From NCBI GenBank assembly GCA_964481195.1, contig CAYZTB010000005.1, forward strand, positions 10,138 to 74,137: DNA of 64,000 nucleotides, in the 5' to 3' direction. How positions within the stretch are numbered: position 1 is the first letter of the stretch; each line of letters opens with the position of its first letter. The notes beneath the pieces were generated by a model, which saw only the letters and a list, made by a program, of their open reading frames with translations, had not been told where the DNA came from and did no database searches. The translations under genes were made by a program, and so were the position numbers. Shown here one piece after another: positions 14,459 to 58,623 of the stretch. The stretch is from an uncultured Bacteroidia bacterium (lineage in GTDB: Bacteria > Bacteroidota > Bacteroidia > Palsa-948).

Positions 14459-14459
14459 T

Positions 14460-42126: not shown

Positions 42127-42498
42127 TCAAATAAAATTTCTGGAAGAGTAATGTGACGAATGTCTGGTAAATCGTTCACACAGGCGAGTATCTGAAAAAT
42201 CTACTTTGATATTTTTTTTTGCTGGCATAGCTGCTTCATGCCTGTTAATCTTTTTAAACAAAACACTTTTTAGGTTTGTTGACTGCAACACCGTTCGGGA
42301 AACATTTTTAAAATACTTTTTTGCGGCCTTAACACGTGTTGTTTGCAAACTCATTGATCGTAGCTTTTTAATTATTCAAAGGTAATTAGCTGAATGCCAA
42401 AGTCAAATATTCATTCGAATAGTTATTAACCAAATACATTCAAAAATAACCCTCGGACAGCAATCTCTGTAAGGTGAGCAAAGTATAGAGAATCCAAA

Positions 42499-45400
42499 CT
42501 ACCTAACTACATTTACATTTCCAACATAAATAAACTGTTGGCTAAACACATCTACTAAGCTTACTTTCCAAACATATACGTCTTCTTGCATTAAAATTCC
42601 ACTTTGTCCATTCATATCAGACCCACCAGGTTTAACTATGCCATCCCATTGACAATAAGAAGATAAACCATCTTGACCAGGGCTGTCCCAATCTGTATTT
42701 TTTCCTGTATGATGACAATCCCAAATCATATTTCCCCATCTATCAAATATCCAAATATCGTATTCTTTTATTCCTCTACCCTTTCCAAAGAACATATCAT
42801 TAGTTCCGTCTTTATTGGGTGTAAAGGTGTTAGGTATATAAAAAGTAACTTCTGGCAAGATCTCAATTACTTTAGAAATTGTATCCCAGCAACCATAAAT
42901 GTTTTGAACAGTTAATGTAACCGTATAAGAGTAAAAATTATTCGTAGTGGTGGTTGCTGAATAACTATGAATTGGATCCGTATGCGTACTGTCTAATGAT
43001 GATCCATCGCCAAAATTCCACATCCAATTTGTAACATTGGTTGACCATAAATCACAAAAATTAAATGTTGGGTCTGTGATACTTGCAAAATTTGGAGTCA
43101 CACAAAATTGAGCATCGGGCCAGTCATAAATAGTAATGTATAGTGGAGCAGATATTGAATCTACACAACCATAAGTAGAAGTAACAATTAATGAGGCGTT
43201 GTAACTTCCTGGCTTGCTCCAACAAATTGTAGGATTTTGAGAAGTAGAAAAACTTGGATTACCTCCCGGGAATGACCATTGCCAGCTTGTTATAGTACCG
43301 TCAACTGACGTAGACAAATCAGAAAAAGTTGCGCAGGATGGAGCACATCCTTTTACTGAATCAGAAAATAATGCAATGGGTGACTGGTATATTGTAATTG
43401 CACTTGTTGTAGTATCCTTACAGCCGTTTATGGTTGTTACAATAAGTGTGACCGTATAGGCGCCAGAAGATACATACGTATGAGTTGGATGTTGATTTAT
43501 ATCGTTGGGTGAGCCATCGCCAAAATTCCAATTCCAAGCATTGATAGCATTTCCTGCTTGCGTTGTAGAAGCATCAGTAAAATTAGTTGGCGCATTCAAA
43601 CATCCGCTTTGAGAAACAATTGCAGCAGCAGGAATTGGATATACCTGAATAGGAATAGAAGTAACATTTTGACAACCACTATCAGATGTAACTGTTAAAA
43701 TCACAGAAAAAGTTCCTGATAAACTAAATGCATGACATGGGCTTTGCAATGCAGAAGTATTTGCAATTCCGGTGCTAGGATCACCAAAATTCCAACTCCA
43801 AGAAATAATATTGCCTGGATTTACTGTTGAATTATCTGTAAAACATGTCTGCGATCCAAAACAAACTGACGTAGAAGTAAACAATGCAGTGGGCAAAGGA
43901 TTTACAATTGCAAGAAGTTGAATGGAATCCGAACATCCTTCAGCATTGGACACTGTAAGACTTACAGAAAAAGTACCCGGATTATTATATGTATGTGTTG
44001 GATTTTGTATTGAAGAAGTGTTTCCATCGCCAAAATTCCAGCTCCACTGGATTGGAGCACCTGTTGATAAATCCATAAATACAGTAGGATTATTGAAACA
44101 AACAATGGATGAAGAAAAATTAGCAACCGGACTTGGATTTACTGTAACAGTTTGGCTTATAGTATCTGCACATCCGGTGATTGTTGTTACTATTAAAGTA
44201 ACAGAGTAAGTTCCAGGTGAAGCAAAAATATGAGATGGATTCTGTAGCGTATCGAGCGCACTTCCATCGCCAAAATTCCAGCTCCAAGTAGCAATTGGGT
44301 CGCCTATTTGAGCAACAGTTGAATCAATAAAAAAAGTTGTAGCTCCTATACATACTGGGCCAGATCCAAATGCAGCTGCAGGTGTCAATCCTCCAACACC
44401 TCCAGTAACAGCAACTGTTGCTGTATAAGCAACATTGCAACTAGTTGATGCTGTCACAGTATAATTCCCTGGACATAAACCTGTAATCGTTTGAGTGGTT
44501 TGCCCACCAGGAGACCACATTAACAAATAGTTAACCTGATTACAACAAGCTATAATATTCGCAGTAGCAGTACCATTGCAAGTACCACCACAACCCGTAT
44601 TAGAAGGAGTTGAAGTAACAGTAAAATTTTGAACAACAGTAATTGGAGGTATATCAATTTCAGTTACAAAAGCAGTTCCACATGCATACAATTTATTATT
44701 GGGGCCAAGCTTAACATCTGCACAAGTGTTTGAAAGTGAATAGCTAGCTAACGCCACAAGTGAAGAATCATAAACCTGAACATTACTCCCTATACCAACA
44801 TACACTTTGTCGCATTTATCCACGGATAAACCACCTGAGGAAAACATAATACCTCCCGTATTTACTTGGCTTTTAAATGCTCCGGTATTTTTATTCCATT
44901 TCTTAAGTACGTTACCGTCATAGCTATATAAATTACAATAGCTGCAAGTCATTCCGTTGTACCCATTAGCACGATTTGCAACTCCTCCTACATATGTTAC
45001 GCTGTTCCACTCATAAAAAGAATATCCTGTAGGAACTAAAAAAGTATACGGAGCAAGTGCAGGTATAGGAACTTTAAACATTTCATTACTAAACTGTAAG
45101 CCATGAACCAAGCTACGAGCAGTTGACATGTATGCAAAAGTTCCTAATGGATCGATTGTCAATAATACAATATCATGATAACCAATATTTGTTGTAGCAA
45201 TTGAATTAACTGGAGAAATACTTAATAAATTTGTATCAAGCATACAAGTTTGATTGGAAGTATTTGTTCCTCCTCCCCCAATAACAATTTTATTTGTGCA
45301 ACTATTGTATTCAGCACGCCACATTTCTACAAAAGTAGTTGAACCAGGAAATATTGCAGTTTGTATACCGAGTGTATTCACTTTTAATGCTCTAGATCCA

Positions 45401-46407
45401 ACACCGGCATTGTACCCTTCAACTAAATAACTTGTACCTGTATTTTCATCCACTGTAAAATCTCCATATTGCAGTGGACCTAAACCTGCTGCATTAAACA
45501 CCCATAATAGCGCACCTGCAGGACTAAATTTTGCAAGCTTAAAGGGCGTGTGTGATCCATAAGCGTAAACATTTCCATTCTTATCAAAGTTTACATCATA
45601 AGCAACATTGTATCCAGCAAAAGTTGGGTTTGTAACCCAAGGGTCAATTACTATTGTCTTCTTGTTGTTATAACTATCAACATAAAAAAATAATTCATTT
45701 CCTTTTAGAATATAATTTGACTTTAGAATGGTTTTTTCATTTTCATATGTTGTAATTGGTGCATGATCAACAAAATCGCCAAATAAACTTTTTGAAATAA
45801 TGTCGCCATTTGAATTCAAAACCATTCCTGTGGTATTGGGTAATTGTAATCTAACTTTTGATATATCCGCTCCCGGCCTTACAATTATATTATACTTTAT
45901 GCCCTCCTTATTTTTTGGAAAAAAATATTCTACGTCAATGTTTTTGTAAATATTTTTGTAAATTATTTTACTATAGCCTTTAGCTTTTATTGGATTTCCT
46001 AACGAATCAGCATAGGAATAATAATGCGAAACCTCTTCTTCTGCAATAATGTTTACAGCTGGATTTGCGCCTATCCAATGAGCGCTGTAAAAAAATACTT
46101 CAGAATTAGTTTCAGCCTGCTCATTCTCTTCTTGGTTATCTTCCTTTTTTCTTACAGAGGCTTTATCATATCTGTATGTAATTTCTTCTCTGGTAAAAAA
46201 CACTTCAACGCCCGAACTATTAGTAGAAAATAATATTTGCGAAGAGCCTGTATTGCTTTTTCCATCAAACTGTCCTTTATTTTCTATAAATACCTTATGC
46301 CCAAAAGGATTAGTAGCATCCCATCGTTCCTGACTAATGCCCACCAAAGAAAGTAGGAAGCTTCCAATAAATAAAAAAGACTTGCCATGGAGGTTAATTA
46401 CTCTCAT
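42499..46407 (-). CDS. Large secreted adhesin (paralogue B): signal peptide, beta-propeller-like head of about 600 aa, an SprB-like repeat, five PKD domains, and a T9SS type-B CTD
   Basis: The PKD pattern WSWNFGDG... appears five times. The C-terminus YIPNTFTPNKDGTNDMFFGKGRGIKEYDIWIFDRWGN is a type-B CTD. The last 450 aa are about 75% identical to paralogue C. Confidence 0.8.
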   Translation of the reverse strand: MRVINLHGKSFLFIGSFLLSLVGISQERWDATNPFGHKVFIENKGQFDGKSNTGSSQILFSTNSSGVEVFFTREEITYRYDKASVRKKEDNQEENEQAETNSEVFFYSAHWIGANPAVNIIAEEEVSHYYSYADSLGNPIKAKGYSKIIYKNIYKNIDVEYFFPKNKEGIKYNIIVRPGADISKVRLQLPNTTGMVLNSNGDIISKSLFGDFVDHAPITTYENEKTILKSNYILKGNELFFYVDSYNNKKTIVIDPWVTNPTFAGYNVAYDVNFDKNGNVYAYGSHTPFKLAKFSPAGALLWVFNAAGLGPLQYGDFTVDENTGTSYLVEGYNAGVGSRALKVNTLGIQTAIFPGSTTFVEMWRAEYNSCTNKIVIGGGGTNTSNQTCMLDTNLLSISPVNSIATTNIGYHDIVLLTIDPLGTFAYMSTARSLVHGLQFSNEMFKVPIPALAPYTFLVPTGYSFYEWNSVTYVGGVANRANGYNGMTCSYCNLYSYDGNVLKKWNKNTGAFKSQVNTGGIMFSSGGLSVDKCDKVYVGIGSNVQVYDSSLVALASYSLSNTCADVKLGPNNKLYACGTAFVTEIDIPPITVVQNFTVTSTPSNTGCGGTCNGTATANIIACCNQVNYLLMWSPGGQTTQTITGLCPGNYTVTASTSCNVAYTATVAVTGGVGGLTPAAAFGSGPVCIGATTFFIDSTVAQIGDPIATWSWNFGDGSALDTLQNPSHIFASPGTYSVTLIVTTITGCADTISQTVTVNPSPVANFSSSIVCFNNPTVFMDLSTGAPIQWSWNFGDGNTSSIQNPTHTYNNPGTFSVSLTVSNAEGCSDSIQLLAIVNPLPTALFTSTSVCFGSQTCFTDNSTVNPGNIISWSWNFGDPSTGIANTSALQSPCHAFSLSGTFSVILTVTSDSGCQNVTSIPIQVYPIPAAAIVSQSGCLNAPTNFTDASTTQAGNAINAWNWNFGDGSPNDINQHPTHTYVSSGAYTVTLIVTTINGCKDTTTSAITIYQSPIALFSDSVKGCAPSCATFSDLSTSVDGTITSWQWSFPGGNPSFSTSQNPTICWSKPGSYNASLIVTSTYGCVDSISAPLYITIYDWPDAQFCVTPNFASITDPTFNFCDLWSTNVTNWMWNFGDGSSLDSTHTDPIHSYSATTTTNNFYSYTVTLTVQNIYGCWDTISKVIEILPEVTFYIPNTFTPNKDGTNDMFFGKGRGIKEYDIWIFDRWGNMIWDCHHTGKNTDWDSPGQDGLSSYCQWDGIVKPGGSDMNGQSGILMQEDVYVWKVSLVDVFSQQFIYVGNVNVVR

Positions 46408-46455
46408 TAATTATTGTTTAAAAAAATAGTACTCAAAAAAAGTAATCCGCAATAA

Positions 46456-49400
46456 TTACCTTACCACATTAACATGTCCGATGTATGCATGTCGTTTATT
46501 AAACACATCTATTAATCTTACTTTCCAAACATATACGTCTTCCTGCATTAGTTGGCCGCTTTGTCCGCTCATGTCCATGCCGCCTCCTACTACTTTGCCA
46601 TCCCATTTACAAAATGAACTTAATCCATCTTGTCCGGGGCTGTCAAAATCTGTATTCTTTCCTGTATGTTCACAGTTCCAAAGTAAATTGCCCCAACGAT
46701 CGAATACCCATATTTCATATTCTTTAATACCTCGACCTTTACCAAAAAACAATTCATTCATACCATCTTGGTTGGGAGTAAATGTATTGGGAATGTAAAA
46801 TGTAAACTCTGGTAAAATCTCTATTGTCTTGCTTATGGTATCCCAACATCCATAAATATTTTGTACTGCCAATGAAATAGTAAAATAATAAAAATCATTA
46901 TTTAGTACAGAAAGAGAATAAGAGTGTGCTGGGTCTGTATTGATGCTATCTTTTGGAGAGCCATCACCAAAATCCCACATCCAACTTGTTACACTATTTG
47001 ACCAAAGATCGCAGAAAACAAAATTAGGATCTGTAATTGAAGCAACAGTAGGAGCTACACAGAAATTTGCAACCGGCCAATCATATACCGTTATATAAAG
47101 TGGGGTAGCTACGGAATCTACACATCCGTAGCTTGAAGTAACAATTAAGGAAGCACCATATACTCCGGGTTTGTTCCAACAAACTTTTGGATTTTGTAAT
47201 CCTGAAATTGCTGGGTTTCCTCCAGGGAATGACCATTGCCAAGACGCGATGGTTCCATCTATCGAAGTAGATAAATCATTAAAGGTTGCACAAACAGGAG
47301 CGCATCCTTTTACTGAATCCGAATAAAGTGCAATGGGTGGATTGTATATTACTGCTGTGCTTGTGGTTGTGTCTTTACAGCCCTGTACGGTAGTTACAAT
47401 TAAGGTAATGGTATAAGTTCCTAGCGTTGAGTATGTATGAGATGGATTTTGATTTACATCATTGGGTGATCCATCGCCAAAATTCCAGCTCCAAGCATTT
47501 ATTGGACTGCCTGCAGGAGAAGTAGATGCATCAGTAAATGGTGTTAAAGCATTTAAACAAACATTCTTTGGTGTGATAGCAGCTGTTGGCAATGGATATA
47601 CATTGGCAGGCAACATCGTTGTGCTTTGACATCCGCTATCGGTAGTGGCTGTTAAAATTACGGTGAATGTGCCAGGGCCCGAAAATGTATGACATGGGTT
47701 TTGTGCTGTAGATATATTTGCTGCACCGGATGTTGGATCTCCAAAATTCCAACTCCAACCTGTGATGGTGCCAGGTGTTACAGTGGAAGCATCCGTAAAG
47801 CAAGACTGATTGCCTACGCATACGGGCGTGGAGCTAAATAATGCTAAGGGTAAAGGATTAATTATAGCTAATAAATTTACAGTGTCAACACAACTCGAAG
47901 TGTTAGTAATAATTAAAGTTACCGAATAAGTTCCTGGTGCTCCGTAGGTATGTGATGGGTTTTGCGAAGTTGAAGTGCTGCCATCGCCAAAATTCCAATT
48001 CCATTGTGCAACAGTAGGATTCCCTACAGATTGATCAGTAAATAGAGTTGGGTTATTAAAACAAACAGGTGCAGTTATTGCAGCAGCAACGGGGTCAATT
48101 CCTGCTGACACTATAATTGGTATTATAACCGTATCAATACATCCTTGCTGGGATGTAACAATTAAAGAAACCGAATAAGTTCCTGGAGAATATATAATGC
48201 CAGATGGATTTTGCGATATTGAACTTGTTGGTGATCCTCCAGGGAAACTCCAATTCCATACTACAATTGGAGTACCATTGGGAGTGTAGCTTGAATCTGT
48301 AAATGATACAACTCCACTTCCACAAGTCCCTAAAGGTGTGTAATTAAAATTTGATGTTACTTGCATCGGGGTAGGAACATAAGTAATGTAAAACGGACAG
48401 CCAGATGGTTGTGAAACAAGTACAGCAAAAGTATCGCCTGGCTGAGGGAAAGGAATAATAGTTTGTGAGGTAGAATTTGGAGCACCAGTATATGGTTGTC
48501 CGTTATGAGACCACTGATATGTGTAATTAATTATCGGATCGGTAGGTGCAGTAATTGTTACAGAATTTCCTACACAGTATGATGCAGGATTTGTAGAAAG
48601 TGAACCACATGAGAAATCCCAATATGAATAGCAGTAGTGTCCGCCTAACGCACAATCTGAATTTGTAATTACAACAGTCAAATTTTGACCAACAAAAGCC
48701 GATAGATTTACCCCTTCCAAAGTCCACGGCTTATAAGAAACAATCATGCCAGCCGGAGGATATCCCGGATTTAGCGAACCAGCACAAGATGCTTGAAAAA
48801 AACCATTTCCTACTCCTCCATTTAAGTCCGCAATGTATTTTCTATGACTACAGGGAACAGTATCTCCATTGGCTTTTAAAATATAAATTTCTGAAAATGG
48901 CGCTTCTGCTGCCGTATGCCCACCAGGTGGATTCTCAAGCACTAAAGCATATGCATAAATAAAATTTGTATCCTGTGGTCCAACAGTTAGCGGGTATCGA
49001 AGTTGCTCCGAACATCCGTTTCCAGCTGCACCAACGCCCGGAGGTGGGTATGGCAAACTATTGGCACATCCCCCGTTTAAGCCACTTGTATTTGGTTGCC
49101 CTAATTGAATTGATGCATTTCCAAAACCAGGACAAACTAGAGGTATTGGTGGGCCTGTTGTTCCTTGAGTGCAAGGATCTACTCCGGCACCACTAGTAAG
49201 ATTAAACCGAGGTGTAACAGGTGCAACGGGTGCAAAAAATGTAGGATCAGGTGAGCCTCCTTTCTGGTGAAACCCTGTAGCTGCTGTGTAGCTACTCCAT
49301 CCATTTTCTCCGCCTAAATCACTACATGCTGCAAACGGACTTACAGGTATATTTTTTTTTACGATTGGATTTGTACCAGGAGCACTCTCACCATTTTGTA

Positions 49401-49518
49401 TTTGAATTTTATTAGAAGTAGCTTTGTTAGTAGATTGCGCAAATAAAGTTTGTGTACAAAAAAATGTTACACCAACAATAAAAACAAAGAAAATCCAGTT
49501 TCTGTAATACTTATTCAT
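46456..49518 (-). CDS. Large secreted adhesin (paralogue C): signal peptide, MAM-like head domain, PKD domains, and a T9SS type-B CTD
   Basis: The head contains CSDLGGENGWS...RFNLTSGAGVDPCT...PGFGNASIQLGQP...YKPWTLEGVNL...SYWDFSCG, shared with D and E. The C-terminal cassette is shared with B. Confidence 0.8.
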   Translation of the reverse strand: MNKYYRNWIFFVFIVGVTFFCTQTLFAQSTNKATSNKIQIQNGESAPGTNPIVKKNIPVSPFAACSDLGGENGWSSYTAATGFHQKGGSPDPTFFAPVAPVTPRFNLTSGAGVDPCTQGTTGPPIPLVCPGFGNASIQLGQPNTSGLNGGCANSLPYPPPGVGAAGNGCSEQLRYPLTVGPQDTNFIYAYALVLENPPGGHTAAEAPFSEIYILKANGDTVPCSHRKYIADLNGGVGNGFFQASCAGSLNPGYPPAGMIVSYKPWTLEGVNLSAFVGQNLTVVITNSDCALGGHYCYSYWDFSCGSLSTNPASYCVGNSVTITAPTDPIINYTYQWSHNGQPYTGAPNSTSQTIIPFPQPGDTFAVLVSQPSGCPFYITYVPTPMQVTSNFNYTPLGTCGSGVVSFTDSSYTPNGTPIVVWNWSFPGGSPTSSISQNPSGIIYSPGTYSVSLIVTSQQGCIDTVIIPIIVSAGIDPVAAAITAPVCFNNPTLFTDQSVGNPTVAQWNWNFGDGSTSTSQNPSHTYGAPGTYSVTLIITNTSSCVDTVNLLAIINPLPLALFSSTPVCVGNQSCFTDASTVTPGTITGWSWNFGDPTSGAANISTAQNPCHTFSGPGTFTVILTATTDSGCQSTTMLPANVYPLPTAAITPKNVCLNALTPFTDASTSPAGSPINAWSWNFGDGSPNDVNQNPSHTYSTLGTYTITLIVTTVQGCKDTTTSTAVIYNPPIALYSDSVKGCAPVCATFNDLSTSIDGTIASWQWSFPGGNPAISGLQNPKVCWNKPGVYGASLIVTSSYGCVDSVATPLYITVYDWPVANFCVAPTVASITDPNFVFCDLWSNSVTSWMWDFGDGSPKDSINTDPAHSYSLSVLNNDFYYFTISLAVQNIYGCWDTISKTIEILPEFTFYIPNTFTPNQDGMNELFFGKGRGIKEYEIWVFDRWGNLLWNCEHTGKNTDFDSPGQDGLSSFCKWDGKVVGGGMDMSGQSGQLMQEDVYVWKVRLIDVFNKRHAYIGHVNVVR

Positions 49519-49533
49519 TTTTTTGTATAAATT

Positions 49534-52155
49534 TTACCTTACCACATTAACATGCCCAATATACATGTGTTTTTTATCAAAAATATCAACTAATCTAACT
49601 TTCCAAACATAAACGTCTTCCTGTGCTAGTTGATTGCTACCTCCGCCCATATCAACACCACCTTTTACAACCTTGCCATCCCACTTACAAAACGAAGGCA
49701 ATCCTTCTTGTTTTGGATTAGTGGCATCGTTATCCCAGTTTGTGTTTTTATCTTCGTGATGACAATCCCAAATTTGATTTCCCCATCTATCGAACAACCA
49801 GATATTATATTCTTTAATGCCTCTTCCTTTACCATAAAATAACTCGTTTACAAAATCGCCATTAGGCGTGAATGTATTTGGAATATAAAATGTAAACTCA
49901 GGCATCAACTCTACTATTTTACAAATAGTATCCCAACATCCATACTGATCCTCTACCCTTAAGCACACGTTGAAAGCATAGAAGTCATTTTGCGTAGCTG
50001 TTGCTGAGTAACTATGAATTGGGTCTGTGTTTACATAGTCAGAATCATTATCTCCAAAATTCCAAGACCACGATATTACATTTGAAGTCCACAGGTCACA
50101 AAAATTAAATACCGGATTGGTTACAGGCTGCATAGTCGGAGTTACACAAAAATTTGCTTTAGGACCTGGTACTGTAGAAATCATAGGAAGAGTAAGCGTG
50201 TCCTTACAACCATAGTTAGTTGTAACCAATAAAGTTGCATTATAATTTCCTGGCGTGTAGTAACAAATATTAATAGGATTTTGAGCGGCAGAACCAGTAG
50301 GTGTGCCTCCAGGGAATGTCCATTGCCAATTAACAATATTGCCATCTACTGGCTGAGATAAATCTGTGTAATCATTACAAATTACACCGCAGCCACTATC
50401 AGGAGCAGAGAAATTAGCAAGAGGAGGATTGTAAACAACTACCTGTTGAACTACAGTATCTATACAACCATTTTTAGATGTTACCACTAAAGTAACCATA
50501 TGAGTACCAGCTGTTAAATAGCTGGTAGCTGTATTTTGAGAAGTAGCAGAAGTTGGAGTACCACCCGGCATTGACCAGTTCCAAGCTGTTATCGGATCTC
50601 CTTGCAATCCAACAGAACCATCTGTTAATGATGTAGCATTTCCTAAACATGGCGTTGATGGGGTAAGTGCTGCGGTAGGAAATCCTCCCGTTGTGACAGA
50701 ATGGGTAACATTAGCTGAACACCCATTCGATGCTGTGATAGTTAACGATGCAGTATAATTACCCGGAGGGTATGTTACATTAACAGTAGGCGTAGTTGCT
50801 GTTGCTGGTGAACCGCCAGGAAACGACCAACTATATCCGGTAATATTTGCAGATCCTTGAGGTGAAACAAAGCTGCTATCTTTAAAAATATAATTACCAC
50901 AAACACCCGTAAAATTAAAGTTAGGCAATGCTAGTCCTGGGGCATAAGTAAGATAAAAATTACAACCTGATGGTTGAATAACTTGAAGCTGAAACGTATC
51001 TCCTTGTACTGGGTTAACAACATAGGTTTGGTTAGTTTGACCCGGTACAACTACACCATTATGATACCATTGATAAGTAAATGGATTATTGGGGTCAGAG
51101 ATAGGGCCTGTCATTGTGGAAGTACCACCTATACAGCCTAGAGAAAGAGGTACAGGACCACACTTGAAATCCCAATAGGAGTGAGCATAATGACCACATT
51201 GTGCACAATCCACGTTTGTAATAATAATAGTTAAATTTTGTCCTACATATTGTTTAAGATTTACTCCAACTGTAGTCCAAGGTTTGTATGACGTACTAGT
51301 ACCTCCAAGACATCCTCCTGTTCCTGCAGCAGTAAAAAATCCTGGGAGTGGGCCAGAACCTCCAGGGGCTACATATTTTTGGTAAGAACAATCCACTGTG
51401 TCTCCATTTGGAGCAAGAATTAAAAATTCTGCAAATGGGCGCTGGGTTTGAGAATGCGAAGATCCTGGATCGAATAATACAACCGCATAAGCGTAAACAA
51501 AGTTTGTATCTTGTACAGTAGGAACAAAATTATAAGTCATTTGTTCTACCCAACATCCAGTTTTTTGAGGACATCCAAGTTGCAACGATGCGTTACCAAA
51601 ACCAGGAGCAACTAATGGAATTGTTGGACCAGGGCCACCTCCAATAGGATTAGTTCCGGGAGTACAAGGATCTATTCCAGTACCTGAAGTCATTGTAAAA
51701 CAAGTAGTAGTAGAGTTTGTATTTACAGGAGGGGATACAGAAGCACTCATGGTAGGAATACCTGTAGTACCATTTGTAGTACCCGGTGCACCTGCCCACG
51801 TACTCCATCCGTTTTCAAATCCAACATCACCGCAAGCCATTACAGATGGAGGGTTGCCGGACTTATCTTTTAGCACACTTAGATCTTCTTTGTGTACATT
51901 TTTAAAGTCTTTAAAAAATTGCTTTCTATTGGCTATTAACTTATCAATAACTACAGATGGAACTCCATCTTTTTTCATAACCTCTCTCTCTTTTGCTTCA
52001 TTAAAATATTGGGGAGAAATTCTGTAGTCCCCTAAAAGCTTAGGCTCATTTGATGGATTTGTCTGAGCGTTTGTTGTAGTCGAAATTAACATCGCTACGG
52101 TAAATGCTCCAACAATAATTGAAGCAAACGATAATTTGTTTTTTAATGTATTCAT
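49534..52155 (-). CDS. Large secreted adhesin (paralogue D): signal peptide, MAM-like head, PKD domains, and a T9SS type-B CTD
   Basis: It has the same head-domain motifs as C and E (MACGDVGFENGWSTW; RFN-like; SYWDFKCG). The CTD is YIPNTFTPNGDFVNELFYGKGRGIKEYNIWLFDRWGNQIW. An 11-nt gap to the upstream gene indicates an operon. Confidence 0.8.
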   Translation of the reverse strand: MNTLKNKLSFASIIVGAFTVAMLISTTTNAQTNPSNEPKLLGDYRISPQYFNEAKEREVMKKDGVPSVVIDKLIANRKQFFKDFKNVHKEDLSVLKDKSGNPPSVMACGDVGFENGWSTWAGAPGTTNGTTGIPTMSASVSPPVNTNSTTTCFTMTSGTGIDPCTPGTNPIGGGPGPTIPLVAPGFGNASLQLGCPQKTGCWVEQMTYNFVPTVQDTNFVYAYAVVLFDPGSSHSQTQRPFAEFLILAPNGDTVDCSYQKYVAPGGSGPLPGFFTAAGTGGCLGGTSTSYKPWTTVGVNLKQYVGQNLTIIITNVDCAQCGHYAHSYWDFKCGPVPLSLGCIGGTSTMTGPISDPNNPFTYQWYHNGVVVPGQTNQTYVVNPVQGDTFQLQVIQPSGCNFYLTYAPGLALPNFNFTGVCGNYIFKDSSFVSPQGSANITGYSWSFPGGSPATATTPTVNVTYPPGNYTASLTITASNGCSANVTHSVTTGGFPTAALTPSTPCLGNATSLTDGSVGLQGDPITAWNWSMPGGTPTSATSQNTATSYLTAGTHMVTLVVTSKNGCIDTVVQQVVVYNPPLANFSAPDSGCGVICNDYTDLSQPVDGNIVNWQWTFPGGTPTGSAAQNPINICYYTPGNYNATLLVTTNYGCKDTLTLPMISTVPGPKANFCVTPTMQPVTNPVFNFCDLWTSNVISWSWNFGDNDSDYVNTDPIHSYSATATQNDFYAFNVCLRVEDQYGCWDTICKIVELMPEFTFYIPNTFTPNGDFVNELFYGKGRGIKEYNIWLFDRWGNQIWDCHHEDKNTNWDNDATNPKQEGLPSFCKWDGKVVKGGVDMGGGSNQLAQEDVYVWKVRLVDIFDKKHMYIGHVNVVR

Positions 52156-52166
52156 CTTTGTTTAAT

Positions 52167-53432
52167 TTAATCTGTAATTGTAATTAAGCCTTGTTGGTAA
52201 ATATCTCTTCCATTTTTGTTTTTTACTACTGCTTTCCATAAATAAGTTTCTCCTTTTCTTGTGTTATTTCCTTCCCATACTAGATTTTTATCTGATGTTT
52301 TATATACGATGTTCCCTTGTGCATCTGAGATAGTAATTGTAAATTCATAATCTCCCGACTGAAGAGTAATAGGCATCCAAGTATCATTAATCCCGTTTCC
52401 ATCTGGGCTAAATGCATTAGGGGCTAACAAGTCTAATTCGTTTTTCAGATTCACTTCTTTTACTACAACACCCACACATCCAATTTGATTTTTTACATAT
52501 AAAGTAACTTTGTACGATCCATACTTTTTATACGAGTGACTAGGGCTTGGCATGAAAGAAGTTTGCTTATCTCCAAAATCCCATTTCCAATCTGCAGCAT
52601 CGCTATAGTCAGAATCAAAATTAACCAGTAACTCATTTTCTGCCGAAACCAATGTGTTTATTCTTGGATCTGGAGCAGCAGAAACAATAATATTGTTTTT
52701 CTCCTCTGCTTTTTTTCTGTCTACTTCCGAAATGATTTGAAGTTTTACTGTAAAGGAACCTGCCTCTTTATAGATATGTTTGGGGCTTGCTTCTGTAGAT
52801 GATTGACCATCGCCAAAATACCATTTGTAGGAGCAAACAGCCTCATTTTTTGCAGGCAAAAACTGCACTTCTTCTCCTTCGCAAATTGCACGCTTGCTTG
52901 TTTGGAAAGAAGCCGATAAGACAACCGGAATAGTTTCTTGTTTCTGCGCAGTGGTTGTTTGAGTAGGAACAGTAGGAGTGTTTTTGTTATCTGAAACTAA
53001 AACTTCATTTTTCTTTTGATTATTTTCTACTTCAGGAGATTTTCCCAAAACCACATTATTGTTTTCTACTTTTCTAGTCTCCTCTTTATTAGAATTCACT
53101 GCAGCATGCTGATTGTTTAAATTTATTTTTCTATTAGAAGGATCAGCATTTTGAATTTGTGTGTTTTCTTCAGAAACAACTGGCATACTTGTTTTCTCAA
53201 CAACATCTTTTGGTGCATTAACCGAATTGCTTTCAGTACTAAAGTAATAGAATAGCCCAGATGCTAAAATAACTGAGGCAGCAATTAAAATATTTCTTGT
53301 AATTTTTGATGTAGGATTACTAACCGCAGCAGTGTCAAGTTTACGTTCTAGCGCTTTCCAATCCGCTGCATTATAATCCACCTCGAAGTTTTCAAGCGAC
53401 TCTTTAATGTGTTTATCTAACTGGCCTTTCAT
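52167..53432 (-). CDS. Signal-anchored (N-in, single TM) protein with a low-complexity linker, two PKD domains and a T9SS type-B CTD; candidate anti-sigma factor or sensor for the adjacent ECF sigma
   Basis: A 44-aa hydrophilic N-terminus precedes one TM helix (ILIAASVILASGLFYYF). The PKD patterns are KWYFGDGQSS...HIY and WKWDFGDKQTS...HSY. The CTD is LLAPNAFSPDGNGINDTWMPI. A 1-nt gap to the sigma stop codon indicates translational coupling. The anti-sigma role is inferred from position and topology only. Confidence 0.45.
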   Translation of the reverse strand: MKGQLDKHIKESLENFEVDYNAADWKALERKLDTAAVSNPTSKITRNILIAASVILASGLFYYFSTESNSVNAPKDVVEKTSMPVVSEENTQIQNADPSNRKINLNNQHAAVNSNKEETRKVENNNVVLGKSPEVENNQKKNEVLVSDNKNTPTVPTQTTTAQKQETIPVVLSASFQTSKRAICEGEEVQFLPAKNEAVCSYKWYFGDGQSSTEASPKHIYKEAGSFTVKLQIISEVDRKKAEEKNNIIVSAAPDPRINTLVSAENELLVNFDSDYSDAADWKWDFGDKQTSFMPSPSHSYKKYGSYKVTLYVKNQIGCVGVVVKEVNLKNELDLLAPNAFSPDGNGINDTWMPITLQSGDYEFTITISDAQGNIVYKTSDKNLVWEGNNTRKGETYLWKAVVKNKNGRDIYQQGLITITD

Positions 53433-53433
53433 T

Positions 53434-54015
53434 TTATTTTTGATGTGCTGTTACTATCTTTTCGAGATCTTTTTTTAAGTGTGCTTTTGCTTTAGACAAA
53501 TTAGATTTTGAAGTGCCTATATTAATTCCTAACTGATCTGCAATTTCCTGATGCGAAAAACCGTCAACAACAAATAAGTTGAAAACTGTTCGGTAGGCCT
53601 CTGGTAATTGTTGAACTGCTTGCATGATTTCTTTAGTGCTTAACTGTAAATATTCGCTTTCGTCTGTTGTTTCGTCTGCTTTATCTTCTATAAAATCCGA
53701 ACTTGTATGATTAATAAATTGCTTATTCTTTCTTATATAATCTAGTGCTGTATTAACAATAATTTTTCTTACCCAACCTTCAAATGATCCTTTTCCTTGA
53801 TATGATTTAATACTTGTGAATACTTTTAAAAACCCATCTTGTAATATATCTTTTGCTTCTTCATTATTAGCTGAGTATCTCAAACAAGCTCCCATCATTT
53901 TGCCATACAATTTCTGATATACTAATTGCTGGTATTTTCTTTCCCCTTTAATACAACCTTCAATTATGTCAAAAAACGGATCTTTTTTATCTTCACTCAT
54001 CACATCTGTACTCAT
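53434..54015 (-). CDS. ECF (sigma-70 family group IV) RNA polymerase sigma factor; the true start is probably the second ATG at 54000
   Basis: Region 2 is DILQDGFLKVF...W..I..N...D. Region 4 is AYRTVFNLFVVDGFSHQEIADQLGINIGTSKSNLSKA. The promoter motif overlaps the first ATG. Confidence 0.85.
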   Translation of the reverse strand: MSTDVMSEDKKDPFFDIIEGCIKGERKYQQLVYQKLYGKMMGACLRYSANNEEAKDILQDGFLKVFTSIKSYQGKGSFEGWVRKIIVNTALDYIRKNKQFINHTSSDFIEDKADETTDESEYLQLSTKEIMQAVQQLPEAYRTVFNLFVVDGFSHQEIADQLGINIGTSKSNLSKAKAHLKKDLEKIVTAHQK

Positions 54016-54045
54016 AAGACGTTAATATTACAAAAGGTTGCCTTA
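54016..54045 (-). promoter_or_regulatory. ECF-type promoter on the minus strand: TAAGGCAACC-N15-CGTCTT followed by a conserved AGTACA box; a candidate autoregulatory promoter of the sigma operon
   Basis: The minus-strand reading is ATAAGGCAACCTTTTGTAATATTAACGTCTTATGAGTACAGAT. The identical architecture recurs at 56790-56820. GGAAC/CGTC-like spacing is typical of ECF sigma promoters. Confidence 0.5.
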
Positions 54046-54131
54046 TTACCTATCCAAAATCAATGATTATTACAAAAAAAGACGAAAATTCATAAATACT
54101 TGAAAATAAATTAAATAAAACACAATACTTC

Positions 54132-54167
54132 AAAAAAAAACCCGTAAGAGAACTTACGGGTTTTTTT
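54132..54167. terminator. Bidirectional rho-independent terminator separating paralogue E from the sigma operon
   Basis: A9 run, then CCCGTAAG-AGAA-CTTACGGG, then T7 run (54141-54160 stem-loop). Confidence 0.75.
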
Positions 54168-54183
54168 ATTGATAGTCAAACAA

Positions 54184-56745
54184 TTACTTTACAATGTTAA
54201 CGTGACCTATATAAAGGTGTTTTTTATCAAATATATCAGTCAGTCTAACTTTCCATACATAAACATCCTCTTGAGCAAGTTGGTTGCTACCACCTCCCAT
54301 ATCTACTCCTCCTTTTACAACTTTTCCGTCCCATTTGCAATAGGATGAAAGTCCATCTTGTTTAGGATTTGTAGCATCATTATCCCAATTGGTATTTTTA
54401 TCTTCTACATGACAATCCCAAATTTGATTTCCCCATCTGTCAAAAAGCCAGATGTTATATTCTTTCACACCACGACTTTTCCCAAAAAACATTTCATTAA
54501 TAAAATCGCCATTAGGAGTAAATGTGTTAGGTATATAGAATGTAAACTCAGGAATAAGCTCCACAATTTTACAGGTTGTATCCCAACATCCGTATTGATT
54601 CTGAACATTAATACAAATTTTATAAGAATAAAAATCATTTGATGTTGCAGTTGCAGAATACGAATGTGAAGGATCTGTATTAATGATATCAGTCGTGTTA
54701 TCGCCAAAATCCCAAGTCCACTGAACTACATCCGTTGACCAAAGGTCACAAAAATAAAATACTGGGTTAGTAGTTGGCGCTATAGTTGGAGTAACACAAA
54801 AATCTGCATTAGGCCATGGGTATACTTCAACCATTGGAAGCTGAATGGAAGCCTTACAGCCAAAGTTTGTAGTCACACTAAGTGAAACGCTATAGGATCC
54901 AGGAGTATAATAACAAATATTAGTTGGGTTTTGAGATGAAGATGAAGATGGTGTTCCTCCAGGAAAAGACCAAGACCAAGAATTTACTGTTCCATCAACA
55001 GCTTGTGATAAATCAGTATAGTTAGCGCACACTGGAGAACAGCCACTATCTGGCGCAGAAAAATTAGCAATAGGAAGATTGTAAACCAATACCTGCTGAA
55101 TAATCGTATCAATACATCCAGCGACAGAAGTAACAATCAAAGAGACGGTATGCGTTCCCGCTATATTGTAAGTTGTTGAGGTATTTTGACTGGTAGCTGA
55201 AGCAGGATTTCCGCCAGGCATATTCCAATTCCAAGATGCAATGGGATCCCCTTGAACAGCCACAGATCCATCTGTTAATGTAGTAGCAACTCCTAAACAA
55301 GGAATAGTAGGAACAACTGCAGCTGTTGGAAACCCACCTACAGTAAGTGGTTGAGAAATAGTTGCCGTACATCCTTCAGATGAAGTAACTGTAATAGATG
55401 CTGTATAATTTCCAGGCGGGTATGTCACATTGGCTGTTTGGGTATTTGCCGTTGATGGACTGCCACCCGGAAAGCTCCAATTCCAATTAGTTATAGTTGA
55501 AGAAGTTGATGGAGTAACAATGCTATTATCTACAAACACATAGTTGCCGCAATTGCCTGTGTAAGTAAAGTTGGGTTGTACAACCGCAGGTGCATATTTC
55601 AAAAAGAAATTACAACCTGATGGCTGGATTACTTGAACAGCAAAAGTATCATTGGGAGTTGGTGTAACTAATAATGTTTGATTTGTTGCACCTGGCATTA
55701 AGGTGCCATTTTGATACCATTGATAATTATAGGGTACAGTAGAAGTCGAAGCTGGTCCAACAATAGAAGATTGGTTTCCAACACAACCCGCTGCTAAAGG
55801 CACTGGGCCACATTGCACATCCCAATAAGAGTGCGCATAGTGTCCACAGAATACACAATCATGATTATCAATTACACAAGTCAATTGCTGTCCTACATAT
55901 GCAGATAGATTTACGCCAACAATTGTCCAAGGCTTGTAAAAAGTACTATTTCCACCTAGGCATCCTGCAGCTGCTGTATACCATCCCGGTAAATTTGGGT
56001 CACTAATATAACGCTGAAAAGAGCAAGGAACTGTATCTCCATTTTGGTCTAATATTTTAAACTCTACATAAGGCTTTTCATTAAATGCATGTCCACTGGA
56101 AGGATCATAAAGTACAGCTGCAAATGCATAAACTAAATTTGTATCCTGTGCAGTTGGAGTGAAGGGAAACGTAAGTTGTTCTGTCATGCAACCAGTAGTT
56201 TGTGGTTGACCTAATTGAATAGAAGAGTTTCCAAACCCTGGAGCAACAACAGGTATTGTTGGAGCTCCTGCTGCAGCTCCTGGCGTACACGGATCTATTC
56301 CCGCTCCTGTTGTTATATTAAATCGAGGTGCTGGTGGATTAGGTACTGCTGGTTGTAATGTGCCGGGATTTCCTCCACTGTTCGAACCTATTGCTCCTAC
56401 CCATTGACTCCAACCATTTTCTACGCCTAAATCAGTACATGCTAAAGGAACAGGATTAGGATCTTTCTTTTTTGAGAATTGGGTAGAAGAAACAATTGAC
56501 TTATACTTTTGAAGATATAATTTTCTATCTGCTAATACTCTATCAATTTCCGGATCTGATAATCCGTCTTTTTTCATCATTTTTCTAAGCTCTTCATCGC
56601 TGGTACCAGTAACTATTGTTGCCTTTTCAGGAGAGTTTTTGCTAATAGTTTGTTGAGCAAACAACTCATTAAAAAAAAATGGTGAACAAAAAAAAGCAGT
56701 GATAAAAAAAATTACAGATAATCTAGCTGTTGTTTGGTTTTTCAT
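54184..56745 (-). CDS. Large secreted adhesin (paralogue E): signal peptide, MAM-like head, PKD domains, and a T9SS type-B CTD; monocistronic
   Basis: LACTDLGVENGWSQW, RFNITTGAGIDPCT, SYWDVQCG. The CTD is YIPNTFTPNGDFINEMFFGKSRGVKEYNIWLFDRWGNQIW. The DNA is about 80% identical to D over the 3' 400 nt. Confidence 0.8.
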   Translation of the reverse strand: MKNQTTARLSVIFFITAFFCSPFFFNELFAQQTISKNSPEKATIVTGTSDEELRKMMKKDGLSDPEIDRVLADRKLYLQKYKSIVSSTQFSKKKDPNPVPLACTDLGVENGWSQWVGAIGSNSGGNPGTLQPAVPNPPAPRFNITTGAGIDPCTPGAAAGAPTIPVVAPGFGNSSIQLGQPQTTGCMTEQLTFPFTPTAQDTNLVYAFAAVLYDPSSGHAFNEKPYVEFKILDQNGDTVPCSFQRYISDPNLPGWYTAAAGCLGGNSTFYKPWTIVGVNLSAYVGQQLTCVIDNHDCVFCGHYAHSYWDVQCGPVPLAAGCVGNQSSIVGPASTSTVPYNYQWYQNGTLMPGATNQTLLVTPTPNDTFAVQVIQPSGCNFFLKYAPAVVQPNFTYTGNCGNYVFVDNSIVTPSTSSTITNWNWSFPGGSPSTANTQTANVTYPPGNYTASITVTSSEGCTATISQPLTVGGFPTAAVVPTIPCLGVATTLTDGSVAVQGDPIASWNWNMPGGNPASATSQNTSTTYNIAGTHTVSLIVTSVAGCIDTIIQQVLVYNLPIANFSAPDSGCSPVCANYTDLSQAVDGTVNSWSWSFPGGTPSSSSSQNPTNICYYTPGSYSVSLSVTTNFGCKASIQLPMVEVYPWPNADFCVTPTIAPTTNPVFYFCDLWSTDVVQWTWDFGDNTTDIINTDPSHSYSATATSNDFYSYKICINVQNQYGCWDTTCKIVELIPEFTFYIPNTFTPNGDFINEMFFGKSRGVKEYNIWLFDRWGNQIWDCHVEDKNTNWDNDATNPKQDGLSSYCKWDGKVVKGGVDMGGGSNQLAQEDVYVWKVRLTDIFDKKHLYIGHVNIVK

Positions 56746-56789
56746 TTTGTTTATATTATTGGGGATTAAAAAATCTGATTTGTACTTTA

Positions 56790-56820
56790 AAGACGTAGTT
56801 ATTGCAAAAGGGTTGCCTTA
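56790..56820 (-). promoter_or_regulatory. Second copy of the ECF-type promoter (TTAAGGCAACCC-N16-CGTCTTTAAAGTACAAAT on the minus strand), 45 nt upstream of the paralogue E start codon
   Basis: Read directly from the sequence. It is near-identical to the motif at 54016-54045, including the downstream AGTACA.AT box. Confidence 0.5.
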
Positions 56821-56912
56821 AATTTCAAAATAATAATCAACCAAAGAAGTGAATTTTAAACAAAAAATTGAGCTTTATTACAGAAAACCCATTTTTAAAC
56901 AAATCAGATGCT

Positions 56913-58532: not shown

Positions 58533-58623
58533 GATGGAGAATTAAAGTTGAGTACACAAGGTGAATCACCTTGTGACGCTACACAAATATAAAAAGTTAC
58601 AGGGGAATAGAGAAATAATTACC

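What the first reader, a model, noticed from the sequence alone, without database searches (positions are those of the whole stretch)
42499..47900. Modular adhesin family: variable heads on a conserved PKD/type-B-CTD 3' cassette, a possible substrate for domain shuffling
Paralogues A (4631-7540), B and C share a nearly collinear C-terminal block of about 450 aa. It holds four PKD domains plus the CTD and is about 75% identical in protein between B and C. Their 3' 1.4 kb (42499-43900 versus 46456-47860) is about 75-80% identical in DNA, with exact runs of 15-25 nt. D and E form a second, tighter pair with exact runs up to 30 nt such as ATGACAATCCCAAATTTGATTTCCCCATCT. The heads differ completely. 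A has SprB repeats plus a CBM-like domain, B has a beta-propeller-like head, and C, D and E have a MAM-like domain. Tandem arrangement of B, C and D with conserved 3' ends is the classic layout for recombinational head-swapping or gene conversion that generates surface variation.
Basis: partly seen in the sequence, partly recalled or inferred. Interest (0 to 1): 0.55.

Follow-up and report, generated by a model that had tools for sequence, protein, structure and literature searches.

The report
Old modular surface-protein family, heads occasionally re-paired
An uncultured Bacteroidota genome carries six old paralogous secreted surface proteins that share a PKD-stalk and secretion-signal tail; comparison with sister species shows heads and tails were re-paired by rare past recombination, but nothing indicates active switching today, so it is a well-documented but ordinary case of modular protein evolution.

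Summary
Each has a signal peptide, a variable head, 2-6 PKD domains and a type-B T9SS C-terminal domain (CTD). The quoted identities were somewhat high: the B/C and D/E tails are 71% identical in protein and about 70% in DNA.

The DNA similarity is fully explained by protein constraint. Synonymous sites are saturated, and codon choice at conserved residues matches chance. The longest exact runs (26 and 30 nt) are not significant after correction. There are no near-identical repeats, silent cassettes or inverted repeats. The array is collinear and at least 99.97% identical in four samples. Ongoing gene conversion or head-swapping is therefore not supported.

The modular-shuffling idea does hold over evolutionary time. 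In sister species (L035, L003, L037) the head and tail trees conflict with 92-100% bootstrap support. C pairs the head of L35c with the tail of the neighbouring gene L35d, and the switch maps to the WxFGDG motif of PKD2. E pairs an L37a-type head with a D/L35a-type tail.

Verdict: a new member of a known kind of modular T9SS cargo family that evolves by duplication, loss and rare recombination in the PKD stalk. Interest is modest.

The parts
4631..7540 (+). Paralogue A: signal peptide, head with SprB repeat (aa 1-421), 5 PKD domains (aa 422-845), type-B CTD. It lies apart from the array.
42499..46407 (-). Paralogue B: signal peptide, DUF7948 plus beta-propeller head (aa 1-673; nt 44389-46407), 6 PKD domains (aa 674-1178; nt 42874-44388), type-B CTD (nt 42499-42873).
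46456..49518 (-). Paralogue C: signal peptide, MAM/CBM-like jelly-roll plus Ig head (aa 1-386; nt 48361-49518), 6 PKD domains (nt 46831-48360), type-B CTD (nt 46456-46830). Chimeric relative to L35c (head) and L35d (tail).
47983..48012 (-). Inferred ancient recombination breakpoint in C (aa ~503-512), at the W-N-F-G-D-G motif of PKD2. N-terminal to it C follows L35c. C-terminal to it C follows L35d, including a shared one-residue deletion.
   Evidence: it coincides with repeat family D6, copy 47980-48011
49534..52155 (-). Paralogue D: signal peptide, MAM-like head (nt 50935-52155), 4 PKD domains (nt 49921-50934), type-B CTD (nt 49534-49920). Its head is orthologous to L35a and L3a.
52167..53432 (-). 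Sixth member F (421 aa): conserved 45-aa N-terminal segment, one transmembrane helix (aa ~47-66), low-complexity linker, 2 PKD domains, type-B CTD. It starts 1 nt after the sigma gene.
53434..54015 (-). ECF-type sigma-70 factor heading the co-directional run sigma-F-D-C-B (intergenic gaps of 1, 11, 15 and 48 nt).
54184..56745 (-). Paralogue E: signal peptide, MAM-like head of a distinct (L37a-type) lineage (nt 55588-56745), 4 PKD domains (nt 54571-55587), type-B CTD (nt 54184-54570). The head/tail breakpoint lies roughly at aa 371-460 (nt ~55368-55635).
49759..49788 (.). 30-nt exact match with 54409-54438, in the CTD-coding part of D and E. It is the longest identical tract in the family.

Best explanation
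The locus encodes an old paralogous family of type IX secretion (T9SS) cargo proteins. Each has a Sec signal peptide, a variable ligand-binding head, a stalk of 2-6 PKD domains and a type-B C-terminal domain of about 125 aa. The head types are a SprB-repeat region, DUF7948 plus a beta-propeller, and a MAM/CBM-like jelly roll.

By analogy with characterised type-B cargo, the CTD would direct export through the T9SS and attachment to a PorP/SprF-like outer-membrane partner, and the PKD stalk would hold the head away from the cell surface. This step is inferred, not shown.

The shared 3' 'cassette' is conserved because the stalk-CTD protein module is under purifying selection, most strongly in the CTD. 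At the DNA level the copies are as diverged as they can be at silent sites.

The family diversifies slowly, by gene gain, loss and relocation and by rare recombination inside or at the edge of the PKD array that re-pairs heads with tails. C most likely arose when a c-type gene and its downstream neighbour (d-type) recombined at the conserved WxFGDG motif of a PKD repeat, fusing the c head to the d tail. E carries a head from a different lineage than its tail. These events date to around or before the split from the sister species, not to the present population.
For: Architecture:
- PKD and CHU_C Pfam hits lie above the cut-offs in all six proteins. TIGR04131 hits are sub-threshold. PKD maps are and signal peptides.

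Old age and absence of conversion:
- pS is 0.70-0.80 and dS exceeds 2 for all tail pairs.
- Same-codon use at conserved residues equals chance.
- The run-length permutation test is not significant after correction.
- There are no near-identical repeats.
- Off-register PKD repeats are only 24-37% identical, so there is no homogenisation between repeat positions.

Stability:
- Four assemblies from separate samples are collinear and 99.97-100% identical.

Historical reassortment:
- The syntenic loci L035, L003 and L005 share topA (82-84% aa identity; L035, L005) and arginase (89-94%; all three) with the window, but gene content differs within the array.
- Head clades are (C, L35c, L3c, L4a) 100%, (D, L35a, L3a) 100% and (E, L37a) 92-100%.
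- Tail clades are (B, C, L35d) 100% and (D, E, L35a) 98%.
- For C, 145 of 165 informative sites follow L35c before about residue 509, and 97 of 126 follow L35d after it. Max chi2 is 125, against 3-12 in control triplets.
- Residue-level mapping places the switch at the WxFGDG motif.

The same heads occur elsewhere with other stalks and CTDs:
- C-type heads occur with type-A CTDs.
- DUF7948 heads occur mostly with SprB repeats plus CHU_C, or with type-A CTDs.

The function of type-B CTDs is taken from PMC9143113 and PMC12618676.
Against: - The relatives are single MAG or metagenome contigs. Only species-level comparisons were available, not strain-level ones.
- Trees are NJ on simple distances, not ML with site-heterogeneous models.
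- The direction of each event (which lineage is the recombinant) rests on parsimony with few taxa.
- Transfer of segments between genomes, rather than recombination between tandem neighbours, cannot be excluded.
- Consensus assemblies cannot reveal low-frequency recombinants.
- No PorP/SprF-like gene lies in the window.
- No T9SS core gene was seen here, so secretion and surface anchoring are inferred. 'Adhesin' is a guess based on the folds.
Confidence: 0.7

Rival explanations
1. Active diversity-generating system: the tandem genes currently exchange 3' or 5' segments by gene conversion or unequal crossing-over and so produce surface variation within populations.
For: The copies are tandem and co-directional with a shared 3' block. 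Isolated exact runs of 26 and 30 nt reach the minimal length usually quoted for RecA-type recombination (own knowledge). Past chimeras show that such exchange is possible.
Against: Silent sites are saturated and codon identity is at chance level. The run-length test is not significant after correction. The maximum is 80% identity over 300 nt, and there are no inverted repeats or silent cassettes. The Pfam/NCBIfam scans of the window's ORFs of 200 aa or more returned no recombinase or invertase family. The array is identical and collinear in four samples. About 30% DNA divergence is expected to suppress homologous recombination by many orders of magnitude (established knowledge).
Confidence: 0.05
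2. Plain divergent paralogues with no recombination at all. The head/tail conflict would be an artefact of rate differences (fast heads, constrained tails) and differential loss of ancient duplicates.
For: Tails, and especially CTDs, are more constrained than heads in the D/E group, and a moderate max-chi2 signal (8-15) appears even in control triplets. Gene content clearly changes by gain and loss.
Against: Rate variation cannot make C's tail significantly closer to L35d (97 sites) than to L35c (29 sites) while its head is 76% identical to L35c and 43% to L35d. The switch is sharp and includes a shared indel. Differential loss still requires that the same head once existed on two different tails. 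E's tail nests inside (D, E, L35a) at 98% while its head lies outside (D, L35a, L3a) at 100%.
Confidence: 0.12
3. The mosaics arose by horizontal replacement: segments imported from other strains or species by transformation or allelic exchange, as in Porphyromonas gingivalis surface genes. They would not come from recombination between neighbouring paralogues of the same chromosome.
For: Allelic exchange generating mosaic surface genes is documented in Bacteroidota (PMC5266723). E's head is closest (69%) to a gene from a different organism in a sister sample (L037). B's DUF7948 head has no counterpart in the syntenic loci.
Against: C's two parents are adjacent genes in L035, and their divergence from C is equal (head 75-76%, tail 75%). 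This fits a single intrachromosomal event after vertical descent. GC content is uniform across the array.
Confidence: 0.13

Closest known systems
Type-B CTD cargo of the type IX secretion system (SprB and other Flavobacterium johnsoniae type-B substrates; P. gingivalis PG1035)
   Same: C-terminal CHU_C/TIGR04131-type domain, N-terminal signal peptide, large repetitive extracellular stalk and a Bacteroidota host. Several type-B proteins lack an adjacent shuttle gene, as described for the 'orphan' substrates of F. johnsoniae (PMC12618676, PMC9143113).
   Different: The stalk is built of PKD domains rather than long SprB-repeat arrays. The proteins are 850-1300 aa, not the giant SprB. No PorP/SprF-like gene was found in 64 kb. 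The TIGR04131 scores are below NCBI's cut-off. Secretion has not been tested.
P. gingivalis gingipain/HagA adhesin-domain rearrangements (Dashper et al. 2017, PMC5266723)
   Same: T9SS surface proteins of a Bacteroidota species whose paralogues share C-terminal adhesin or stalk modules. Domain rearrangement and mosaicism do not follow the species tree.
   Different: In P. gingivalis the variants form a mosaic among strains of one species. Here the copies are about 70% identical in DNA with saturated silent sites, and the events are visible only between species. The CTD there is type A.
Gene-conversion antigenic variation systems (Neisseria pilE/pilS, Borrelia vlsE, Mycoplasma surface-protein families; own knowledge)
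   Same: Clustered paralogous surface-protein genes with conserved and variable segments.
   Different: There are no silent or truncated cassettes and no highly identical flanking tracts. There is no population-level variation, and all copies are complete, signal-peptide-bearing genes.
General modular evolution of PKD/Ig-stalk surface proteins by domain shuffling and repeat-mediated unequal crossing-over
   Same: Variable numbers of PKD repeats (2, 4, 5, 6, 7). The breakpoint lies in the most conserved repeat motif. The same head families are joined to different stalks and sorting signals in other genomes.
   Different: Nothing essential; this is the category it belongs to.

Membership tests
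T9SS type-B CTD cargo protein | C-terminal domain matching PF13585 (CHU_C) / TIGR04131 | tested here: met
   PF13585 scores are 27.9-37.2 bits against a cut-off of 27 for all six proteins. TIGR04131 matches the same region but scores 20-31 bits, below its cut-off of 35. In A-E only the first ~55 of 86 profile positions are matched.
T9SS type-B CTD cargo protein | N-terminal Sec signal peptide | tested here: met
   A-E have a hydrophobic N-terminal segment ending in AQ, GQ or SQ (judged by eye and hydropathy, with no dedicated predictor). F instead has a 45-aa N-terminal segment followed by one transmembrane helix.
T9SS type-B CTD cargo protein | Host encodes a T9SS | not testable with these tools
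   No T9SS core gene lies in the window. Indirect support comes from three type-A CTD (Por_Secre_tail) proteins at 7598-8839, 30456-31901 and 56913-58532 and from Bacteroidota relatives.
T9SS type-B CTD cargo protein | Cognate PorP/SprF-like shuttle or anchor gene (often adjacent) | tested here: not met
   No PorP/SprF family hit was found in any of the window's 33 ORFs of 200 aa or more. Adjacency is frequent but not obligatory, as orphan type-B substrates exist (PMC12618676).
T9SS type-B CTD cargo protein | T9SS-dependent secretion and surface localisation | not testable with these tools
   This needs experiments.
Gene-conversion / cassette-type surface variation system | Long, near-identical DNA tracts shared by donor and acceptor copies | tested here: not met
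   The best matches are 80% over 300 nt and 71% over 1.4 kb, and the longest exact runs are 26 and 30 nt. Silent sites are saturated.
Gene-conversion / cassette-type surface variation system | Silent or partial donor cassettes, or a dedicated recombinase or invertible element | tested here: not met
   All copies are complete ORFs with start codons and signal peptides. There are no significant inverted repeats. The family scans of the window's ORFs returned no recombinase or invertase domain.
Gene-conversion / cassette-type surface variation system | Sequence or arrangement variation among members of one population | tested here: not met
   Four assemblies (Ga0163149, Ga0163152, SRR6448211, SRR6448212) are collinear with 0-5 SNPs over 10-26 kb. 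Consensus assemblies cannot exclude rare variants.
SprB-type gliding adhesin | Long arrays of SprB repeats with an adjacent sprF | tested here: not met
   Only A has SprB repeat hits (2 stretches). There is no sprF-like gene.
MAM domain (PF00629) proteins | Sequence match to the MAM profile | tested here: not met
   No Pfam hit was found for the C, D or E heads even at E <= 5. The similarity is at fold level only and is shared with many CBM jelly rolls.

The most novel reading that the evidence does not exclude
The PKD-stalk/type-B-CTD module may act as a lineage-wide recombination scaffold. Under this reading, crossovers recur at the invariant WxFGDG motif and re-pair binding heads within an ECF-sigma-headed operon. 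The operon's second gene (F) would be a membrane-anchored, anti-sigma-like protein that itself carries a T9SS type-B CTD, and so could couple secretion status to expression of the adhesin set. This would be a slow 'evolutionary shufflon' with a secretion-sensing regulator.
Probability: 0.12. Interest if true: 0.6.

Novelty: new member of a known kind. Interest (0 to 1): 0.3.

Why it matters
The case gives a clean, quantified example of how T9SS surface proteins of environmental Bacteroidota acquire new head and stalk combinations. It includes a breakpoint mapped to a conserved PKD motif. It also shows that 70% DNA similarity between tandem paralogues can be wholly a by-product of protein constraint and should not be read as a sign of ongoing gene conversion. 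For annotation, the five tandem genes should be treated as distinct, long-lived surface proteins with different binding heads, not as variants of one antigen. The link to an ECF sigma factor, conserved in four species, suggests how the set may be regulated.

Tried and rejected
1. Recent gene conversion was tested and rejected:
   - Sliding-window pS/pN showed no window of low pS.
   - A permutation test of the longest identical runs was not significant after correction.
   - An identical-codon test at conserved residues gave chance-level values.
2. Specialised variation machinery was looked for. The repeat and inverted-repeat scan of 41500-58800 found nothing above 80% over 300 nt, and only three weak inverted repeats of chance quality.
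3. An early tree suggested within-genome concerted evolution of tails, with (D,E) sister at 97%. This dissolved when the closer relative L35a was added: E-L35a 77% exceeds D-E 71%, and (D,E) support fell to 15%.
4. PDB sequence searches with the three head types found nothing. A Pfam search for MAM or CBM by sequence found nothing.
5. A homologue search with the N-terminal 70 aa of F returned no candidates. Pfam gave only a sub-threshold DUF3379 hit (E = 0.12).
6. The promoter/terminator scan was uninformative: fewer promoter-like sites than in shuffles, and Bacteroidota promoters are not covered.
7. A literature search for domain shuffling in T9SS families found no direct precedent beyond P. 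gingivalis.
8. Strain-level comparison was not possible. The only close sequences are near-clonal copies of the same population.
Full report
**What is there**

The window is identical to JGI metagenome contig Ga0163149_10000129. It comes from an uncultured Bacteroidota organism with about 37% GC.

Six ORFs carry PKD_4/PKD domains and a C-terminal CHU_C domain, which is the type-B T9SS sorting signal:
- A, 4631-7540(+)
- B, 42499-46407(-)
- C, 46456-49518(-)
- D, 49534-52155(-)
- F, 52167-53432(-)
- E, 54184-56745(-)

CHU_C passes Pfam's cut-off in all six. TIGR04131 matches the same place but below its cut-off.

A home-made PKD HMM gives these domain maps:

| Protein | Head (aa) | PKD domains | Then |
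|---|---|---|---|
| A | 1-421 | 5 | CTD |
| B | 1-673 | 6 | CTD |
| C | 1-386 | 6 | CTD |
| D | 1-407 | 4 | CTD |
| E | 1-386 | 4 | CTD |
| F | none | 2 | CTD |

A-E start with typical signal peptides. F has a conserved 45-aa N-terminal segment, one transmembrane helix and a low-complexity linker before its PKD domains.

An ECF sigma gene (53434-54015) precedes F by 1 nt. F, D, C and B follow with gaps of 11, 15 and 48 nt. This run is probably one operon, which is an inference.

The flanking genes are housekeeping genes: pheT, glmS, aspS, arginase and topA.

**Checking the observation**

The shared C-terminal block is real (BLASTP E = 0).
- B/C are 71.1% and D/E 71.6% identical in protein over the last 450 aa.
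- The two 1.4-kb 3' regions of B and C are 70.8% identical in DNA.
- The exact runs are 26, 18, 17, 17 and 17 nt.
- The quoted 30-mer occurs exactly at 49759 and 54409.

Identity rises towards the C terminus in all pairs.

The heads:
- B's head is DUF7948 followed by a beta-propeller. The AF2 model has pLDDT 87 and pTM 0.86, and its Foldseek hits are WD40-type propellers with target-normalised TM of about 0.7.
- The C, D and E heads are homologous to each other (45-52% identity). The C head models (pLDDT 82) as a jelly-roll beta-sandwich plus an Ig-like domain.
- A's SprB repeat is confirmed. Its 'CBM-like' part was not tested.

**Is the 3' similarity a sign of ongoing recombination?**

No.
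- Nei-Gojobori analysis gives pS of about 0.70-0.80 (dS above 2) for every pair and every 60-codon window of the tail. This includes the CTD of D/E, where pN falls to 0.05.
- At positions where two paralogues have the same amino acid, they use the same codon exactly as often as pooled codon usage predicts. For B/C this is 156 observed against 148.5 expected (z = 0.88). For D/E it is 147 against 146.3 (z = 0.08).
- The 70% DNA identity is therefore entirely a consequence of protein conservation plus codon bias.
- Shuffling codon columns gives P = 0.054 (B/C, 26 nt) and 0.015 (D/E, 30 nt) for the longest exact run. Neither is significant after correcting for ten pairs.
- The repeat scan finds nothing better than 80% over 300 nt and no meaningful inverted repeats.
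- PKD repeats at different positions are only 24-37% identical, whereas positional counterparts are 60-77% identical. There is no homogenisation between repeat positions.
- The same array is found in assemblies of four samples (Ga0163149, Ga0163152, SRR6448211, SRR6448212). It is collinear, with 0-5 SNPs over 10-26 kb.

**Comparison with sister species**

Three syntenic loci were recovered:
- L035 (JADMIO011283372): topA 84%, arginase 89% amino-acid identity.
- L003 (JAHEYK010000030): arginase 94%.
- L005 (PLUL01000010): topA 82% (global alignment; 85% in the local BLAST match).

Two short contigs from a sister sample were also recovered (L036, L037).

Silent sites between these species are also saturated, so relative timing has to come from protein trees.

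The gene orders are:
- Window: CotH-E-sigma-F-D-C-B
- L035: CotH-L35a-sigma-F-L35c-L35d-L35e
- L003: CotH-sigma-F-L3a-L3b-L3c-L3d-L3e

The sigma-F pair is constant. The PKD/CTD genes around it change in number, position and head type.

**Head and tail trees disagree**

The head clades are:
- (C, L35c, L3c, L4a), 100%
- (D, L35a, L3a), 100%
- (E, L37a), 92-100%

The tail clades are:
- (B, C, L35d), 100%
- (D, E, L35a), 98%, with L3a outside
- (L36a, L37a), 98%, inside the A/B/C-type group

For C, the head is 76% identical to L35c and 43% to L35d. Its tail is 75% identical to L35d and 62% to L35c.

In the triplet test, 145 of 165 informative sites before about residue 509 follow L35c, and 97 of 126 after it follow L35d. 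Max chi2 is 125 (permutation P < 0.0005). Control triplets of presumed orthologues give 3-12.

Residue-level inspection places the switch at the W-N-F-G-D-G motif of PKD2 (C aa ~503-512, nt ~47983-48012). Downstream of it C and L35d share a one-residue deletion. This motif is the most conserved DNA stretch among all PKD repeats in the locus (family D6).

L35c and L35d are adjacent genes, and L35d has one PKD more. A single unequal crossover between PKD2 of a c-type gene and PKD3 of its d-type neighbour therefore explains C. Parsimony with L3c, which has a c head on a non-Y tail (Y being the tail clade B, C, L35d), suggests that the window lineage is the derived one. This is an inference.

E has an L37a-type head (69% identity) on a tail nested among D and L35a (77% to L35a, which occupies the same position next to CotH). 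In L037 the same head type sits on a seven-PKD, A/B/C-type tail.

B joins a DUF7948-propeller head, absent from the syntenic loci, to a Y-type tail. A is weakly mosaic as well: its last ~300 aa are closer to E than to B (chi2 = 22).

More distantly:
- C-type heads occur on short proteins with type-A CTDs.
- DUF7948 heads occur mostly with SprB repeats plus CHU_C, or with type-A CTDs, and only occasionally with PKD plus CHU_C.

**Interpretation**

Heads and tails have indeed been re-paired by recombination in or next to the PKD array. But the events are old. They are comparable in age to the divergence of species whose housekeeping proteins are 82-94% identical. The present copies are too diverged to be efficient recombination substrates, and nothing in the sequence or in four population samples points to an active variation mechanism.

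Recombination between these direct repeats would fuse or delete genes, as inferred for C, rather than reversibly swap heads.

Functionally, the proteins are best read as T9SS-exported surface proteins that display different binding modules on PKD stalks. In this reading the type-B CTD is recognised by a PorP/SprF-type shuttle or anchor encoded elsewhere in the genome (PMC9143113, PMC12618676). This part is inferred from family knowledge. No PorP/SprF gene lies in the window.

**Comparison with known systems and verdict**

The closest documented analogue in the phylum is the domain rearrangement among the gingipain/HagA adhesin modules of P. gingivalis (PMC5266723). There the variants form a mosaic among strains of a single species, which is not the case here. 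Cassette-type antigenic variation systems are excluded by three failed defining features (see the membership table).

This is a new member of a known kind. The breakpoint at the WxFGDG motif and the conserved ECF-sigma/F pair are the only mildly unusual aspects. Interest is 0.3.

Noticed in passing
window 52167-54015 (-); also L035 8925-10750, L003 2653-4480, L005 6807-8666: An ECF sigma gene is followed 1 nt later by F. F has a conserved 45-aa N-terminal segment (HIKxSLxxFExxYNPADW...), one transmembrane helix, a variable low-complexity linker, two PKD domains and a type-B T9SS CTD. The pair is conserved in four species. The layout resembles a sigma/anti-sigma pair, but an inner-membrane-anchored protein carrying a T9SS secretion signal is odd.
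   Followed up: partly
window 56913-58532 (-): A CotH kinase-like protein with a type-A T9SS CTD lies immediately upstream of the array. It is conserved in L035 (70-71% identity) and L003 (55%) but absent from L005.
   Followed up: no
window 7598-8839 (+): A peptide-N-glycosidase F-like protein (N-glycanase_N/C domains) with a type-A CTD lies directly downstream of paralogue A.
   Followed up: no
window 30456-31901 (+): A 481-aa protein whose only recognisable domain is a type-A T9SS CTD. Together with the others this makes at least nine T9SS cargo genes in 64 kb.
   Followed up: no
whole window: No PorP/SprF-like gene was found in any of the window's 33 ORFs of 200 aa or more, although the window holds six type-B CTD proteins. 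All six would be 'orphan' type-B substrates.
   Followed up: yes
L003 13623-18033; L035 17837-21163: A further head type occurs on the same tail family (L3d, L3e, L35e). It is rich in a repeated 'DGGY' motif and has no counterpart in the window, where B with its DUF7948-propeller head occupies the terminal position.
   Followed up: no
window 4631-7540 (A), aa ~670-969: A's last ~300 aa are closer to E (up to 73% identity in 60-aa windows) than to B or C, although its PKD1-3 region groups with B/C. Max chi2 is 22. This may be another old exchange between the two tail types.
   Followed up: partly
window 52156 (F-D intergenic), 47423, 54274, 56999: These four positions are the only differences between four assemblies of this population. 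The C>T change at 52156, in the 11-nt gap between F and D, recurs in three of the loci fetched from the other assemblies (L055, L056, L058).
   Followed up: partly
window 9810-11735 (-), 17223-19277 (+), 19287-21302 (+): Two PMT_2 (dolichyl-phosphate-mannose mannosyltransferase-like) plus TPR proteins and a TPR-only protein. They flank a TonB-dependent receptor/DUF4249 pair (11960-15437) and a MORN-repeat protein.
   Followed up: no
(database behaviour): The large protein search did not return the window's own proteins or the 70-76% identical orthologues found by the contig scans. Absence of close hits in that tool is therefore not evidence that close relatives are absent.
   Followed up: no
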